A DNA stretch of 64,000 nucleotides from assembly GCA_024679065.1 (NCBI GenBank), contig JAGIQG010000014.1:4340001-4404000 (forward strand), given 5' to 3'. This document shows positions 3,001-61,200 of the stretch, piece after piece. This stretch comes from Sphyrna mokarran (lineage: Eukaryota). Numbering within the stretch: the stretch's first letter is position 1; each line of letters starts with the position of its first letter. Made by a program: the position numbers.

Positions 3001-6000
3001 GATAGTCACTAAGCTGTCGTGTTGCCCGTCAACTGGTCCAATTCAAGCATACGCTAACGACGTGAAGCACTAGGCTATTCTCGAAAAGTCAACAACAAGG
3101 CGGAGCGAAATACCTGTAGGATTGTCACACCAATTCGCGAGAGGGAGTGACTGCTCTCCAGCGTGTCCCACAATGCCTCCCAGCATCTTAAATCCCTTAC
3201 CTAATTCATCTCCAAAACATTATTCGTCCAATCAGACTTTGGAACATTTCAAAAAATCTTTTCGATTTCATATTCACTGCCCCGTCAATACCTCCAGTGC
3301 TGGTTATAGGGACAGCCCATATTTGAAGAATTGTCCACAGATGTTCCAGTTGAAGAATAATCAATTTAAAGACATTTAGCCCATATATTTAATTTAACAT
3401 TGCTCAACTTCATTCAAAATTCTGGCAACAAACGTCAATGTGGACGGCAAAGCTTCTCCACTCCAAACGCGTGCGTGTTAGATTGACTGGCCAGGGGAAG
3501 TTGCAGCTTCTTGTCAGGGAGCCGCACAAGCTAAATACGTGCAGTTAGCGGGATGGGCCTGGATGGGATTGTTGTTGGTGCAGAATCAGTGGGCTGACTT
3601 GCTTCGTTCTGTACTCCAGCGACTTCTGCACTCTGTTCCATGTTTTGTTTTGAGTTATCTGCACATTCCAGAATGGAGCAATTTGAGCAATTTCACTGAA
3701 GAAACGCAGCAAATCGCCGAAGACAGTATCTTTTAAACATACATGCACGAACATCTATAAGGACCATGGAAATCTATAAGGACCATAGAACATAGAACAC
3801 GACAGTGCAGCACAGGCCCTTCGGCCCTCGATGTTGCACCGACCAATGGAAGCAATTTTATGACCCTCTATCCTAAACTATTCCAATGCTATCCGTATGC
3901 CTATCCACTGACCATTTGAACGCCCTTAAACTTGGCGAGTCCACTACTGCTGCAGGCAGGGCATTCCTCGCCCTTGCTACCTTCTGAGGAAAGAACTCAC
4001 TTCTAGCATATGTCCTATAACTACCACCCCTTAATTTAAAGCTATGTCCCCTCGTGCTATCCATCTCCATCCGAGGACAAAGGCTCTCACGATCCACCCG
4101 ATCTAACCCTCTGATCATCTTATATGTCTCAATTAAGTCACCTCTTAGCCTTCTTCTCTCTAATGAAAATAGCTTCAAGTCCCTTAGCCTTTCATCATAA
4201 GCCCTACCCATCATACCAGGCAACATCCTGGTAAACCTCCTCTGCACCCTTTCCAATGCCTCCACATTTTTCTTCTAATGTGGCGACCAAAACTATACAC
4301 AATATTCCAAATGCGGCCTCACCAGAGTTTTGTACAGTTGCAACATAACATCTCGGCTCCGAAATTCAATCCCTCTACCAATAAATGCTAACACACTATA
4401 CACCTCCTTAACAACCTTATCAACTTGAGTACCAACTTTCAGAGATCTATGCACCTGTATACCGAGATCTTTCTGCTCATCTACACTACTAAGAATCCCA
4501 CCATTAGCCCTATATTCTGCACACAAATTAATCTTACCAAAGTGAATCACCTTATACTTTTCCACATTAAACTCCGTTTGCCACCTCTCGGCCCAGCTCT
4601 GCAACTTATCTATGTCCCTCTGCAAACTGTAACATCCATCCTCACTGTTTACAACTCCTCCGACTTTGGTGTCGTCAGCAAATTTACTAACCCATATCTC
4701 TACACCCTCATCCAGGTCATTTATAAAAATAACAAACAACAGTGGCCCAAAAAAAGATCTCTGAGGAACACCACTAGTAACTAAACTCCAGGTTGAATAT
4801 ATCCCATCAACCACCACCCTCTGTCTTCTATCAGCTAGCCAATTCCTAATCCAAATTGCTATATCTCCCTCAATCCAGTGCATCTGCATTTTCAGAGAAG
4901 CAGAGTCGTAGAAATACCTCAATCTGGAAGTTTCTCTTCAAGTCACTCAACATTCTAACTTGGGAATATAGTGCCGTTCCTTCACTGTTGCTATGTCGAA
5001 TCCTTGAACTCCTGCCTAGCAGCACATGTGCCTACATCACATGGATCAGTCCTAAATGTCAGTTCACAAGCAACTCCTAAACGACAATTCTTGATCAGGA
5101 AGAAATGATGGCCGAACCTGCTATACAGAAACCTGGCTAAATAAGCTTAAAAATTATCATGTTGTGTGACTCTTTTCAATATGCATGTCTTTAAACATTT
5201 ATGATTGATGCTTCGAATCGTGCTGTGTCATTTTTTCTATTCTGTATATGCCGCTACTGGTTAACATATATAGAGTGAGCAACTATCGCATTATTTGCAA
5301 ACACAACGTTGTTTCACCAAACATGCGACTGTGATTCATTTGTAGAAGTAATTGATTCAAGATCGTTATGAAACCACCACGCGCAGCTAAAAGACAGAAC
5401 GATTATCTGATAATAAATGAGCACATTCCACTCCATTTCGTTGATGTGAGTCTATACTCGGGCCTAACGGTGAACTACAGTAAACAATGCTGAGGTTTTC
5501 GATCGATCACTTTCTGCACCGACATATGGAATGACTGGCAAAGTATTGCACCTAAAACAATGTCAGCACCTCTCAAGGATCGTTATAAAAAATGAAGTCT
5601 TATTTTAAACTGATGTTAACGGTGCAATTGAAAAACAAATGCTGAAGAAAATAGACATAAGATACTAAAGCATTGGAATCGGACCATCGAACATCTTTTT
5701 CGGGAAGGATGTTCGGAGGATGATTTTTGAATGGGGACGGGGACGATGCTCCTTTTCTGTCCTATTATTTCACGAGACAATTCGTGTCCAATTTAGGGTG
5801 CAGGCAGGAGTAGACTATCAGATGCCAGCTTTTGGACTAGATGTCTGACTTTCCATAATTCTGTGACAGAACACCACTCCAACAGTACACCAATAGAGCA
5901 CAAGCCATGATTTCTGCGCACAAGTGAATTGGGGCCTGTTGTTCTGACTGAGGTGTTTGCAAAGCCATATTACAACACTGAGAAGAATAGTAGAGAATCG

Positions 6001-58200: not shown

Positions 58201-61200
58201 GATATTCAGACTGGGTTTTATTGGTTCACCGTTCCTTATGCTGGCTGGTCCGAACATCGCATGGCTGATTTTTTGCATTCCCTCCAGCAGTCATCCAATA
58301 TCTTCACATTAATCTCCATCTGGAGATGACAAATACCTGCTTATTGTTCTCCAATTTTAGTCTCACAGATGGCAGAGACCGATCACGTCTGCTGTCCTGT
58401 TTGACTAGCACTGTTTATGAATTTAATTCAGGAACTTCACCTGATGGAAAGATGAGATGGGGCTTCACTAAGCATTGGAACTGCCGGTAAGGCCAAATAC
58501 ACACTACATTTGCTCTTGTTTCTGTTGTTCTACAGATGCGAATCAGAGAAACATCCACATTATATTAACCTCCGAGTGTCAACAGTACCGATTGACGAAG
58601 AGAATTCAGTCTTCCTGTGCGCTTAAATGGGCATCAAATTTGAATGTTGTCGCCTTTCTTCTCGTGAGTGCACAAACAGGAACTCTGTTCTGATGGAGCT
58701 GTTTATAGTGATATTTCACCTTGGCAGATGGATCTGTGCTAATCGATCGCCTTTTTTTTTTACAGGAAAGTTGCCGTAGATCCTTAACACTTTTGTGAAA
58801 ATCGAGTGCAGCTACTGAAACTGGCCGGAGATGTGTTTTTTTTTGGGAGGACTCAAACTCAGCCTATGTTCGGAGAGCTGGAGAATGCAGACTTTCATTG
58901 TTTTATTGCCAAGTGACTAAAGGAAGATAAAATCAATCCTAACTATGAGCTGAACCCCACAGTTTAACCATCAGAGACAGAACTACCCGAGATTCCACTG
59001 TTGGTCTTTACCCGGCGCTCTGTAGCATCTCAGAACAGATTCTCCACTCATCCATTCATCTCAATTATTGCCTCTATCGATCATTTCCATTACTGGCAGA
59101 CCTACTGCCTCCCTTTGATTATATCTTCATAAATCATGTTACACCCAACCAACTACTCGTCCCACCTGCTTAAATGGTGATGTAACAATTGGGGCTTCTT
59201 TCGTGTTTCTGTCCAATAGTCTATTGAAGTTAATATTAATTAGGAACAGATATGACTTTTGTATTGTGAAAAATCGAAAGAATTTTTCCTTGGTTGTGGG
59301 AGTGTTTGTTATTACCTTCCTAAATGTAAGCAAGCTACAGTCCGTGTAGTTGTGCTAAATATAATTTTGGATAGCAAACAAGCTTCACAGTCCAATTTGG
59401 TCACTGATGTGTTCTACATTTCACCTTCCCACGCTTTGGGTTTAGTCATATTAATTATTTATTTCTGTCATGTCGGAGCTGGGTTTCGGATTCCAATGTT
59501 ATTCCTTGGACCCCCAGGCAACACTTGAGCACGTGGGCTGAAAGGTAACAGTATGATTTTCTATTTGTTGGATTTCATTTACATACCAATCGTTAGCACC
59601 GCACTGCCTAATGTGAAAGCAACACCGTTAAAATTTGAAACACTCCTTAGGACAAGGGCTATAACGCACTGTTGAGGTTCCATCTCAAGCATTCGGGATT
59701 AATTCATAACCACGTTTAAACAATAAACGACCAACACATTCCATTCCAAAAAGGCGGAGAGGCGTATTCCAGGAACAGATGGAAGGAAAGAATTCACACA
59801 TGGAAGTAAAATTAGTTTATTTCAAACATATAAGCAAGTTGCCGTATTTTGTTTATGATGAGATAACATAATATTGCACTGAACAGCGAAAACAGACAAT
59901 ATTTTACCACATACTTTACGACATTTGTCATCACATATTTTACGAAATAATACTTTATCACATCTGTTTACCACGGACTTTTGTAACGCAGAATTCCTTA
60001 TTGCATACCTTGCCACATAATACTTCAACATATAAATTTAAGACATGATACCTGACTACATATTTTGTGAAGAATATTTTACCACATGATTTACTGCAGA
60101 GTACTGTAACAAGAGTAGAAAAGTAGTACAGTTATTATGTTCCATGGCAACATTACCAAGGGTAGGGATGATGGGGGCGGGGGTCTGTGTTGGGAGGGAG
60201 GGCAGCGGGTGGATGGAGGTGCGGATATGGATGAAATAAAACTAATCATAATGAAAGCTTATTGTTCTACATTGCATCCTCCATCTCACGACATCTGCAA
60301 ACACTTTAAAATTATTTAAGGTGATTAAACATGGACATGGTGTGGAATGAAGAGCAAAATGTGATAGACAGGAAATGGGAAATGAGGGAAAGAGGTTGGA
60401 AGGTGGTTTCAGCTAGACCTTGGGTGTGGTAAAATCCAAGAGAATTCTGACAGGTGGAATTAGCCAGCGGATTGATGGATTCCATCACCCAATTTTATTT
60501 ATTCTGTTTAACTTCCTTCTGAATTCATCAAGCACCAAGCACTCATGGGTTAACGCAATCCCACGGTAACTAAATATCTTCCTGGTGACTCTGCTGTTTT
60601 GCCAATGAAACCATTCTAGACCGGTGCCAGTGGAGTCATGTTGCTGCAGCTCGGACCCTGAAGTGTCTCTGTTTGAGTGGTGATCTCCTCAGCAGTGGAT
60701 GCATTATTGTTCTGCGAATTGATGTCAAAATATTGAATACACTTAAAATTAAAGTAACTGACATGAAACATAGCGATTTCCTTTCAATGTGAATACTTTT
60801 CTCAATAACTAATAATTCTGTGAAAACTTCATTGTTTCTTTTTGATATTGCAGTCTTTCAAAGAATTAGACACTATACTCCAAAATTATTAGAATCACTG
60901 CAGGCACCATTTTACTCCTGGGTCAAAAAATCAGATTCAGTAAATTTGTGAAGATTATGTAATGTCAGGTGCCCAGAAGAGGATGCAAACTTTGGTAACT
61001 GAATCGGAATGGAAGTTGACTAACTGTTCCACTTACTGAGAAAAAGCATTTTCATTGAGCGTATGGTAATAATAACAATGATATAATTTTCATGGTAGCT
61101 GATTGTGTCCGGAATTAAAGAGGGAATGTTTCTGAGCTGTTTAGCCAGAGACCTCAAAACATTTTTGACTCAAGATCACCACTTGTCCCCATGTGCCGTG

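What the first reader, a model, noticed from the sequence alone, without database searches (positions are those of the whole stretch)
5818..58310. Co-amplifying cassette: a divergent MS4A-like tetraspan gene plus a tRNA-Lys(UUU) cluster, repeated head-to-tail at least three times
Seen: each 26-33 kb unit contains one spliced 4-TM gene, invisible in the ORF track, and upstream on the same strand a cluster of tRNA-Lys copies of which exactly one is intact. Unit junctions fall in or next to the tRNA-flank repeats (~25020-26000, ~58310). Known: MS4A genes form tandem clusters and act as immune-receptor partners (CD20, FceRI-beta) and as chemosensors in mouse necklace olfactory neurons; tRNA genes can act as TFIIIC insulators and replication-pause sites. 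Inference: a lineage-specific elasmobranch MS4A expansion in which the tRNA cluster drives duplication and/or insulates each paralog.
[Added by the scan's program, not by the reader: the finding's places include an assembly gap (unread letters, written N; its length is only estimated) at 18722 to 18952, 44675 to 44813. Whether the letters on both sides are continuous or in frame is not known: test that first.]
Basis: partly seen in the sequence, partly recalled or inferred. Interest (0 to 1): 0.8.

Follow-up and report, generated by a model that had tools for sequence, protein, structure and literature searches.

The report
Duplicated tetraspan gene with tRNA-Lys cluster
An old head-to-tail duplication of a 26-33 kb block carries in each copy a spliced four-helix membrane gene that resembles the MS4A/CD20 family and a small tRNA-Lys cluster with one working member; this is an ordinary way for gene families to grow, and nothing shows that the tRNAs cause it.

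Summary
The window holds tandem units A (1-25994), B (25995-58794) and the first 5.2 kb of C. A and B each carry, on the minus strand:
- one intact tRNA-Lys(UUU) (74.1 and 71.6 bits) plus 3-4 decayed copies;
- downstream of it, a gene of five to six exons.

All gene junctions from E1 to TM4 are phase 0, and splice sites are conserved in both units. Frames stay open (neutral P = 0.016). One indel is seen against 6.6 expected, and it is in frame.

Only two complete cassettes are visible. Unit C ends before its gene.

The MS4A label rests on architecture, relaxed motif positions, a conserved loop cysteine pair and a weak language-model lead (three CD20 clusters, 0.75-0.78). Exon-by-exon Pfam, PDB and homologue searches found no MS4A or CD20 match.

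The paralogues differ by more amino-acid changes than neutral simulation gives (pN/pS 1.24 vs 0.76, 25 of 3000).

The decayed tRNAs share lesions between units, so the cluster predates the duplication and looks like a passenger. The driver or insulator idea is untested. Both N gaps lie in a (TG)n tract outside all exons. Interest is low to moderate.

The parts
1..25994 (.). Tandem unit A (may extend left of the window)
   Evidence: Self-blastn colinearity with unit B and unit C
25995..58794 (.). Tandem unit B, 32.8 kb
   Evidence: It is larger than A because of the B-only stretch 45417-54279
58795..64000 (.). Start of unit C (5.2 kb only; no gene, no tRNA in view)
   Evidence: Mismatch to B is 0.04-0.085 over the first 2.4 kb
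10935..11096 (-). Gene A, coding exon E1 (ATG, 54 codons, ends in L-G, donor GTAAGA)
   Evidence: The only long candidate among 41 conserved ATG-to-GT segments. An in-frame stop lies 2 codons upstream, and AG sits directly before the ATG
9913..10038 (-). Gene A, TM1 exon (126 nt, phase 0-0; TM1, 13-residue loop, start of TM2)
   Evidence: Pyrimidine tract, AG and GTAAGT conserved in both units. KD19 = 2.46
8375..8431 (-). Gene A, TM2 exon (57 nt, phase 0-0)
   Evidence: AG-to-GT scan: same 57-nt exon in A and B, with pyrimidine tract 0.76/0.82 and GTAAGT donor. Weakly hydrophobic
7582..7722 (-). Gene A, TM3 exon plus most of extracellular loop 2 (141 nt, phase 0-0)
   Evidence: B carries an in-frame 18-nt deletion. 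KD19 = 2.12
6193..6322 (-). Gene A, TM4 exon (ends 6197 if the donor is AAG|GTTGGT, 6193 if G|GTAAAT)
   Evidence: KD19 = 2.32. Atlas lead to CD20 clusters
5970..6028 (-). Gene A, possible last exon (phase 1, 18 codons and stop). The alternative is read-through to the stop at 6158-6160
   Evidence: Conserved acceptor and same stop in both units, 11 of 18 residues identical. Uncertain
36978..37142 (-). Gene B, exon E1 (55 codons, +3 nt)
35961..36086 (-). Gene B, TM1 exon
34371..34427 (-). Gene B, TM2 exon
33631..33753 (-). Gene B, TM3 exon (123 nt)
32283..32412 (-). Gene B, TM4 exon
32065..32123 (-). Gene B, possible last exon
22403..22475 (-). Intact tRNA-Lys(UUU), unit A, followed by TTTTT
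   Evidence: ARAGORN. Rfam 74.1 bits. Terminator seen
55670..55742 (-). Intact tRNA-Lys(UUU), unit B, followed by TTTT; 2 of 73 bases differ from A
24189..24239 (-). Decayed tRNA copy, unit A (anticodon arm deleted)
   Evidence: nhmmer. Same deletion as B 57478-57528
24855..24927 (-). Decayed tRNA copy, unit A
   Evidence: nhmmer E = 4.7e-8. Not found by Rfam at E <= 10
19679..19743 (+). Decayed tRNA copy, unit A, inverted
   Evidence: Lies in the segment 19557-21008 that is inverted relative to B
57478..57528 (-). Decayed tRNA copy, unit B
58139..58211 (-). Decayed tRNA copy, unit B (Rfam 30.7 bits, 7 broken pairs; not called by ARAGORN)
53354..53425 (-). Decayed tRNA copy, unit B
53852..53926 (-). 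Decayed tRNA copy, unit B
22257..25088 (-). Unit A tRNA-flank modules (22257-22814, 24045-24564, 24850-25088)
   Evidence: Local blastn, 70-73% identity between modules
55447..58310 (-). Unit B tRNA-flank modules (55447-56151, 57255-57926, 58018-58310)
18722..18952 (.). Assembly gap in unit A, inside a (TG)n tract
44675..44813 (.). Assembly gap in unit B, at the homologous place
45417..54279 (.). B-only stretch: LINE pieces and the inverted copy (52106-53541) of A 19557-21008
25028..25994 (.). A|B junction interval, not homologous to the B|C interval 58312-58844. Holds further tRNA-flank pieces and a LINE ORF1-like piece (25561-25929, +)
   Evidence: Lipase_GDSL_2 at 27.6 bits, below its cut-off of 32.9

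Best explanation
The window lies inside an old tandem array of 26-33 kb units. The ancestral unit already held two things. One was a five-to-six-exon gene for a roughly 210-225-residue tetraspan membrane protein with an MS4A/CD20-like layout. The other, 11-18 kb upstream on the same strand, was a small local array of tRNA-Lys(UUU) genes in which all but one copy had already decayed.

The whole block was then duplicated head to tail and has since been reshaped by unequal exchange or gene conversion, LINE insertions and one small inversion.

Both elements are kept by selection. The live tRNA is almost unchanged. The tetraspan genes keep their frames and splice sites while their amino-acid sequences diverge faster than neutral expectation. 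That pattern suits paralogues that diversify, as surface receptor or co-receptor families do.

The tRNA cluster is most simply co-duplicated cargo.

Shown: the units, the exons, the splice sites, the frame preservation, the shared tRNA lesions and the divergence mosaic. Inferred: MS4A kinship, topology, diversifying selection, function as a membrane receptor subunit or chemosensor, and passenger status of the tRNAs.
For: Units: colinear self-alignments. Mismatch p is 0.17-0.19 over most of the unit, far too high for haplotype duplication.

Gene:
- Five exons appear in the same order in both units, with all junctions phase 0.
- Acceptors carry pyrimidine tracts. Donors are GTAAGA, GTAAGT, GTAAGT and GTAAGT, identical in A and B.
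- 3 of the 8 GTAAGT sites on this strand of 13.8 kb are these donors.
- An in-frame stop lies two codons before the ATG in both units.

Constraint on frame:
- Intron indels are 58 in 3951 nt, so 6.6 are expected in the TM exons. One is seen (18 nt), plus a 3-nt one in E1.
- Neutral P(stop-free) is 0.016.
- Only 37 of 175 intron blocks of 126 nt that are open in A are also open in B.

MS4A-like features:
- E1 ends in L-G and the next exon begins x-x-Q-[VI].
- There is a W-x-x-G at the start of TM2, a 13-residue first loop, a [SC]-L-x-x-N in TM3 and an L-L-E core in TM4.
- A Cys pair is conserved in loop 2, and basic residues follow TM2 and TM4.
- Exon lengths sum to 204 and 199 residues before the tail.
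- The motif list, loop sizes and the 200-300 aa range come from passages of PMC11663944.
- The Atlas's three best named clusters for the TM4 exon all carry PF04103 (0.75-0.78).
- MS4A genes are reported from spiny dogfish ESTs (PMC2826416, passages).

Diversification: pN/pS is 1.24, against a neutral simulation mean of 0.76; 25 of 3000 replicates reach it.

tRNA:
- Full-score cloverleaves with a T-run terminator.
- 2 of 73 differences where about 8 are expected from the local p of 0.11.
- Decayed copies share lesions between units.
Against: - No sequence search supports MS4A. Pfam CD20 was hit by 0 of 10 ORF pieces and 0 of 6 TM exons (of 7 exon translations sent).
- PDB phmmer with the TM4, TM3 and TM1 pieces gave no CD20 or FceRI-beta.
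- Three word-index searches gave nothing.
- The profile search with E1 gave 2 weak hits. One is an unrelated short repeat and the other has no BLAST alignment to E1.
- 0 of 7 strict published motif strings are present.
- The Atlas scores are under 0.9 ('lead only'), and the TM1 exon gave no usable hit.
- TM2 is weakly hydrophobic.
- Exon nucleotide divergence equals intron divergence (0.178 vs 0.179), so there is no sign of purifying selection on residues. A pair of slowly dying genes is not excluded.
- The 3' end is unresolved, and no AATAAA or ATTAAA lies within 1.2 kb downstream.
- I chose the exons partly because they were open, which inflates the frame statistics.
- No transcript evidence exists here.
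Confidence: 0.7

Rival explanations
1. The tRNA-Lys cluster is an active part of the cassette. It provokes the duplications, through replication pausing or recombination between tRNA-flank repeats. It may also act as a TFIIIC-bound boundary that insulates each paralogue.
For: - A-B colinearity ends at the edge of the third tRNA-flank module.
- Divergence between neighbouring units is lowest around the cluster and the junction: p is about 0.11 over 18971-25027 and 0.04-0.085 over 25995-28406, against 0.16-0.20 in the gene body. This is what recent exchange near the cluster would give.
- One live tRNA is kept in each unit.
- tRNA genes as insulators and as fork-pause sites are established elsewhere. 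This is recalled knowledge; only lists such papers.
Against: - The flank modules lie 0.7-1.8 kb apart. Exchange between them would resize the tRNA array, not create 26-33 kb units.
- The decayed copies were already decayed before the unit duplication.
- The two low-divergence stretches compare different unit pairs (A-B and B-C), so they do not form one tract.
- Another low-divergence block (15975-17191, p 0.09-0.10) lies far from the tRNAs.
- The tRNA-to-ATG distance differs, 11.3 vs 18.5 kb.
- The junction intervals themselves are non-homologous and contain LINE debris.
- Colinearity is interrupted at three other places as well.
- Only two cassettes are seen, so the linkage has been sampled once in evolutionary terms.
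Confidence: 0.1
2. The tetraspan 'genes' are pseudogenes or chance open frames. The units are just duplicated non-coding DNA with a tRNA gene.
For: - Exon divergence equals intron divergence.
- pN/pS is not below 1.
- No homologue was found in any protein search.
- The 3' end and poly(A) signal are unclear.
- The exons were picked by eye for openness.
Against: - The joint neutral probability of frame survival is low: stop-free 0.016, and about 5 frame-shifting indels expected with 0 seen.
- Both indels inside exons are multiples of 3, whereas only 13 of 58 intron indels are.
- All ten exon-flanking splice dinucleotides checked are conserved in both units, with textbook donors.
- The order, phases and hydropathy give a coherent tetraspan protein with a start codon and an upstream stop.
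Confidence: 0.1
3. The gene is real but belongs to another tetraspan family, either the TMEM176 sister group or an undescribed one, and only resembles MS4A in layout.
For: - No Pfam CD20 hit exon by exon.
- 0 of 7 strict MS4A motif strings.
- A weak TM2.
- The Atlas scores are under its reliability threshold.
Against: - The relaxed motifs fall at the right places in the right exons.
- 8 of the 10 best Atlas hits with a family share the CD20 family or clan.
Confidence: 0.12

Closest known systems
Vertebrate MS4A gene clusters (CD20/MS4A1, FceRI-beta/MS4A2 and relatives; Pfam PF04103)
   Same: - Tandemly duplicated paralogues.
- About 200-300 residues with four membrane helices, one helix per exon or nearly so.
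- A short first loop and a variable second loop with a cysteine pair.
- Relaxed equivalents of the TM1, TM2 and TM3 motifs listed in PMC11663944.
- Paralogues that diverge fast in sequence.
   Different: - None of the strict motif strings is present.
- No profile or pairwise hit, exon by exon.
- TM2 is weakly hydrophobic.
- Membership is therefore not shown.
Spiny dogfish MS4A transcripts (PMC2826416)
   Same: Cartilaginous-fish MS4A genes exist: three distinct ESTs, none restricted to blood cells (passages read). An elasmobranch MS4A expansion would therefore not be new in kind.
   Different: The source organism of this window was not established.
Tandem tRNA gene arrays with pseudogene members in vertebrate genomes (recalled, not searched)
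   Same: Local repeats of a tRNA with about 0.6 kb of flank, of which one is canonical with a T-run terminator and the others are decayed.
   Different: Here the mini-array is itself nested in a larger protein-coding duplicon.
tDNA insulators and TFIIIC boundary elements (recalled; one search lists papers on them)
   Same: A transcribable tRNA gene sits between successive paralogues.
   Different: No functional evidence here. The spacing to the gene is not conserved.

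Membership tests
MS4A / CD20-like (Pfam PF04103) | Significant match to the family profile | tested here: inconclusive
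   Tested exon by exon only. 0 of 10 ORF pieces and 0 of 6 exact TM-exon translations, among 7 exon translations sent, matched CD20 at E <= 10. Pieces of 41-47 residues have little power. The 19-residue TM2 exon is below the tool's minimum.
MS4A / CD20-like (Pfam PF04103) | Strict conserved strings (VLGAIQIL, LGAXQI, LSLG, GYPFWG, FIISGSLS, SLX2NX2, SX3AX2G; from PMC11663944) | tested here: not met
   0 of 7 strings are present in either copy. LGAXQI would span the E1/TM1 junction, where the two sides read L-G and V-T-Q-[VI].
MS4A / CD20-like (Pfam PF04103) | Relaxed positional equivalents of those motifs in the corresponding helices | tested here: met
   Seen in both copies: L-G at the E1 end, x-x-Q-[VI] at the TM1 exon start, W-x-x-G before TM2 and [SC]-L-x-x-N in TM3. 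[FVI]-I-[IV]-[SC]-G-[ST] is present in A only. The relaxed patterns were written after seeing the sequence, so this is weak.
MS4A / CD20-like (Pfam PF04103) | Four membrane helices with both ends cytoplasmic | tested here: inconclusive
   Three strong segments, KD19 2.1-2.5 in both copies. TM2 is split over two exons and is weak. Basic residues after TM2 and TM4 fit ends-in topology. No topology predictor was run on a joined sequence.
MS4A / CD20-like (Pfam PF04103) | Two cysteines in the second extracellular loop; first loop of about 13 residues; length 200-300 aa | tested here: met
   A Cys near the end of the TM3 exon and a Cys at residue 3 of the TM4 exon are conserved in A and B (A has two more). 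The first loop is 13 residues by inspection. Exon lengths sum to 204 and 199 residues, plus a tail of 9-20.
MS4A / CD20-like (Pfam PF04103) | Fold like CD20 | not tested
   This needs the joined protein, and that step was left out.
Cytoplasmic tRNA-Lys(UUU) gene | Cloverleaf above the family threshold, anticodon UUU, Pol III T-run downstream | tested here: met
   74.1 and 71.6 bits against a threshold of 29. Anticodon ttt. TTTTT and TTTT begin 4 nt after the 3' end.
Cytoplasmic tRNA-Lys(UUU) gene | Expression and aminoacylation | not testable with these tools
   No expression data are available.
tDNA insulator / recombination driver | Boundary or breakpoint activity at the tRNA cluster | not testable with these tools
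   Only position is known. The junction intervals are non-homologous and the array ends are not in view.
Tandem segmental duplication | Colinear head-to-tail units of paralogous rather than allelic divergence | tested here: met
   JC distances are 0.07-0.22, depending on segment and unit pair.

The most novel reading that the evidence does not exclude
The array is a fast-diversifying receptor-gene family, MS4A-like and either chemosensory or immune. Its unit borders are kept recombinogenic and homogenised by the tRNA-Lys mini-arrays. Exchange centred on the tDNA cluster would then expand and contract the array, while a live tDNA between neighbours also serves as a chromatin boundary. The valley of divergence around the cluster and junction and the excess of amino-acid changes would be its two signatures.
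Probability: 0.08. Interest if true: 0.6.

Novelty: new member of a known kind. Interest (0 to 1): 0.3.

Why it matters
If the gene is a true MS4A relative, it adds a divergent, tandemly expanding lineage from what is probably a cartilaginous fish. That is the group in which the family is thought to have first appeared (PMC2826416). It also shows a hint of diversifying selection, which bears on whether early MS4A proteins were ligand-facing receptors.

The tRNA linkage is best read as hitch-hiking. That is a useful caution: co-amplification inside one duplicon is a single event, not a repeated association.

The locus is a reasonable test case for tDNA boundary or recombination ideas, but only once the whole array and other species can be examined.

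Tried and rejected
I replaced it with ORF pieces and then exact exons.
- The hydrophobic ORF 9349-9516 was considered as the TM2 exon and rejected. Its possible acceptors give phase 1 against a phase-0 donor, and one acceptor is absent in B. The 57-nt exon at 8431-8375 fits instead.
- An A-only acceptor near 5984, giving a 46-residue tail, was rejected because B lacks the AG and the frames differ.
- Word-index homologue searches with the TM4 exon, the TM1 exon and the TM3 alignment: 5, 3 and 71 candidates, none scoring.
- Profile search of 1.84 billion representatives with the E1 alignment gave 2 hits (E 5.3e-5 and 4.2e-4), judged spurious. One is a 61-residue internal repeat. The other has no BLAST alignment to E1.
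- PDB phmmer with three pieces gave only a consensus olfactory receptor at E = 5.2.
- The Atlas gave no usable hit for the TM1 exon.
- A blastn run with an unsupported scoring set gave no output and was repeated with defaults.
- Literature: MS4A + shark; MS4A + exon/intron phase (nothing useful); MS4A + cartilaginous fish + tandem duplication; MS4A + tRNA gene + insulator (where none of the 10 listed papers contains MS4A).
- Structure prediction, fold search and complex prediction were not run, because they would need the joined protein.
- Supplementary tables of PMC2826416 (gene lists, alignment) were not seen.
- The closed collections (metagenome and viral contigs) were not used. The bacterial genome collection is irrelevant here, so related loci from other animals stayed unchecked.

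Full report
**What is in the window**

Self-comparison shows three head-to-tail units. Unit A is 1-25994, unit B is 25995-58794, and unit C is 58795-64000, which is only its first 5.2 kb.

A and B are colinear except at four places:
- 2685-4895, which holds LINE debris;
- around 13.6-14.1 kb;
- the stretch between 19562 and 21002, which in B is replaced by 8.9 kb (45417-54279). That stretch holds LINE pieces and an inverted copy of A 19557-21008;
- the junction intervals.

Mismatch between units is 0.17-0.19 over most of the length. These are therefore old paralogous copies, not uncollapsed haplotypes.

Nothing suggests a human contig. The repeats include a reverse-transcriptase fragment (RVT_1, E = 2.4e-9) and a GDSL-type ORF1-like piece (27.6 bits, below cut-off). 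My recollection that such LINE tails are common in shark genomes is not a test.

**The gaps, tested first**

The N runs at 18722-18952 and 44675-44813 sit inside imperfect (TG)n tracts and at homologous positions of A and B. The flanks align on both sides (18580<->44661 and 18971<->44815). Order and orientation across each gap therefore agree with the sister unit.

Continuity inside the gaps is unknown, and I did not infer it. The gaps lie between the gene's ATG exon and the tRNA cluster and touch no proposed exon. Frame is not at issue unless an unrecognised 5' exon lies there.

**The tRNAs**

ARAGORN and Rfam agree on one full-score tRNA-Lys(UUU) per unit on the minus strand: 22403-22475 (74.1 bits) and 55670-55742 (71.6 bits). 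Each is followed within a few bases by a T-run.

nhmmer with the intact copy finds 9 matches in the window, the 2 intact ones and 7 decayed ones:
- in A: 24189-24239, 24855-24927 and an inverted one at 19679-19743;
- in B: 57478-57528, 58139-58211, 53852-53926 and 53354-53425.

Only 58139-58211 reaches Rfam's threshold (30.7 vs 29 bits, seven broken pairs), and ARAGORN does not call it.

The copies sit in 0.25-0.7 kb flank modules repeated locally at 66-73% identity. They are a local mini-array, not dispersed SINEs.

The decayed copies match pairwise between units and carry the same lesions. One example is the same deletion of the anticodon arm in A 24189 and B 57478. The state 'one live, several dead' therefore predates the unit duplication.

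The two live copies differ at 2 of 73 bases where the local mismatch rate (0.11) predicts about 8. By my Poisson arithmetic that is P of about 0.015. Both are probably functional.

**The gene**

Hydropathy and motif scans of stop-to-stop frames, an AG-to-GT scan and a scan for conserved ATG-to-donor segments (41 candidates) converge on the same minus-strand model in both units.

| Exon | Unit A | Unit B | Notes |
|---|---|---|---|
| E1 | 11096-10935 | 37142-36978 | ATG; in-frame stop two codons upstream; AG directly before the ATG, which suggests an upstream non-coding exon; ends in L-G; donor GTAAGA |
| TM1 | 10038-9913 | 36086-35961 | 126 nt |
| TM2 | 8431-8375 | 34427-34371 | 57 nt |
| TM3 | 7722-7582 | 33753-33631 | B lacks 18 nt, in frame |
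| TM4 | 6322-6197 or 6193 | 32412-32287 or 32283 | donor AAG\|GTTGGT or G\|GTAAAT |

All junctions from E1 to TM4 are phase 0. Acceptors have pyrimidine tracts. The TM1, TM2 and TM3 donors are GTAAGT in both units. Only 8 GTAAGT sites exist on this strand of 13.8 kb.

The 3' end is open. One option is a phase-1 splice to a conserved 18-codon exon (6028-5970 / 32123-32065, 11 of 18 residues identical, same stop). The other is read-through to a stop 12 (A) or 9 (B) codons on. No AATAAA or ATTAAA lies within 1.2 kb downstream.

Each exon has exactly two significant copies in the window. There is therefore no third gene in view.

**Is it coding?**

Nucleotide divergence in exons equals that in introns (0.178 vs 0.179), so residues are not conserved. 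The frame, however, is.
- Introns carry 58 indels in 3951 nt, of which 13 are multiples of three. That predicts 6.6 indels in the four TM exons. One is seen, 18 nt long, and E1 has one of 3 nt.
- A neutral simulation uses the intron substitution spectrum and the observed number of changes. It leaves all five exons stop-free with probability 0.016.
- Among 175 intron blocks of 126 nt that are open in A, only 37 are also open in B.
- pN/pS summed over the five exons, each handled separately, is 1.24. The same simulation, conditioned on no stops, gives a mean of 0.76 (5-95%: 0.54-1.03), and 25 of 3000 replicates reach 1.24.

I read this as two live genes under diversifying or strongly relaxed selection on residues.

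Caveats:
- I picked the exons partly for being open.
- The simulation ignores sequence context.
- Only two copies exist to compare.
- There is no transcript evidence.

**Is it MS4A?**

The joined step (whole-protein Pfam, topology, fold) was left out.

Exon by exon, the answer is negative but of low power.
- Pfam: 0 of 10 ORF pieces and 0 of 6 exact TM exons (of 7 exon translations sent) hit CD20 at E <= 10. The only match was TMIE at E = 0.25.
- PDB: no CD20 or FceRI-beta.
- Three word-index searches gave nothing.
- The E1 profile search gave two spurious hits.

A review passage (PMC11663944) lists family hallmarks. Their status here is as follows.
- None of its seven motif strings is present as written.
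- Relaxed equivalents do sit in the right helices. They are L-G | x-x-Q-[VI] at the E1/TM1 junction, W-x-x-G before TM2, an I-[IV]-[SC]-G-[ST]-like start of the 57-nt exon (A only) and [SC]-L-x-x-N in TM3.
- The first loop is 13 residues, as the review states for the family.
- The second loop is about 20-26 residues and has a cysteine pair conserved in both copies.
- Basic residues follow TM2 and TM4.
- The exon lengths sum to 204 and 199 residues before the tail.
- Three helices are strongly hydrophobic (KD19 2.1-2.5), and TM2 is weak.

The Atlas feature search with the TM4 exon puts three chordate CD20-family clusters first (0.75-0.78). Of its ten best hits that carry a family, 8 share that family or clan. 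The tool itself calls anything under 0.9 a lead only, and the TM1 exon gave nothing.

My recollection that MS4A genes carry one helix per exon, with a short TM2 exon, is not checked.

Verdict: it works like an MS4A-type tetraspan and probably is a divergent relative, but membership is not shown. MS4A genes in a shark are already in print: three dogfish ESTs, not blood-restricted (PMC2826416, passages).

**The cassette idea**

Gene and tRNA cluster lie in one duplicon, so their co-amplification is one event, or a few. Several results argue that the tRNAs are cargo.
- The decay of the spare copies predates the duplication.
- The flank modules lie 0.7-1.8 kb apart and could resize the mini-array, not make 26-33 kb units.
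- The tRNA-to-ATG distance is 11.3 kb in A and 18.5 kb in B.
- The two junction intervals (25028-25994 and 58312-58844) share no similarity, and one holds LINE debris.
- Inside an array whose ends are unseen, the unit phase is arbitrary.

One observation keeps the idea alive. Divergence between neighbouring units is not uniform.

| Stretch | Units compared | Mismatch p |
|---|---|---|
| Gene body | A vs B | 0.16-0.20 |
| 15975-17191 | A vs B | 0.09-0.10 |
| 18971-25027 (tRNA cluster) | A vs B | about 0.11 |
| 25995-28406 | B vs C | 0.04-0.085 |
| 28407-29667 | B vs C | 0.17-0.195 |

This mosaic indicates later exchange or conversion among units, with young tracts near the cluster and the junction. 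The two tracts compare different unit pairs, however, and a third low-divergence block lies far from any tRNA. This is a lead, not support.

A search for MS4A together with tRNA gene and insulator listed no paper holding MS4A among its first ten.

**Verdict**

The sequence observation is largely right: two cassettes, not three. The family guess is reasonable but unproven here. The mechanistic inference is unsupported.

The finding is an ordinary tandem gene-family expansion with a hitch-hiking tRNA mini-array. Two things make it mildly interesting: the sign of diversifying change between paralogues, and the divergence valley around the tRNA cluster.

Noticed in passing
window 15975-28406, compared one unit to the right: Divergence between neighbouring units is a mosaic. 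Mismatch p is 0.16-0.20 in the gene body, about 0.11 across the tRNA cluster (A vs B) and 0.04-0.085 over the first 2.4 kb of the next unit (B vs C), then rises back to 0.17-0.195. This suggests later unequal exchange or gene conversion among units.
   Followed up: partly
window 15975-17191 (and 42310-43510 in unit B): This block is roughly half as divergent as its neighbours (p 0.09-0.10 against 0.15-0.19). It lies 5-6 kb upstream of the ATG exon. Conserved GTAAGT sites lie just downstream at 15938 and 15487. It may be the promoter and a non-coding first exon, which would fit the AG directly before the ATG at 11096.
   Followed up: partly
window 45417-54279: This stretch is present in unit B only. 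It holds LINE pieces (a weak RVT_1 match at 49863-50222, and an ORF at 47167-47661 with no family hit). It also holds a 1.45 kb segment (52106-53541) that is inverted relative to A 19557-21008 and carries a decayed tRNA copy. It accounts for the 26 vs 33 kb unit sizes.
   Followed up: partly
window 8216-8356, minus strand: A conserved GTAAGT at 8215 is preceded by a 47-codon open frame in phase 0, between the TM2 and TM3 exons. It could be an extra or alternative exon in the cytoplasmic loop, or chance.
   Followed up: no
window 41802-41855: A G-rich tandem tract in unit B reads as a proline run on the minus strand. It forms an in-frame 48-nt insertion relative to unit A in an open segment that ends at a conserved GTAAGT.
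   Followed up: no
window 3873-4937 (-), 25561-25929 (+), 62169-62570 (-): Fragments of non-LTR retrotransposons. The first has reverse transcriptase (RVT_1, E = 2.4e-9). The second has a GDSL-esterase-like ORF1 piece (27.6 bits, below cut-off). The third has no Pfam support and is judged LINE-like only by eye from its translation. These fragments interrupt colinearity between units.
   Followed up: partly
window 4940-6196 and 30980-32286, minus strand: No AATAAA or ATTAAA lies downstream of the TM4 exon in either unit. The true 3' end of the gene may therefore lie further on, or use a variant signal.
   Followed up: no
window 58312-58794: These 483 bp between the end of A-B homology and the start of unit C match nothing else in the window. 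They may correspond to sequence left of the window start.
   Followed up: partly
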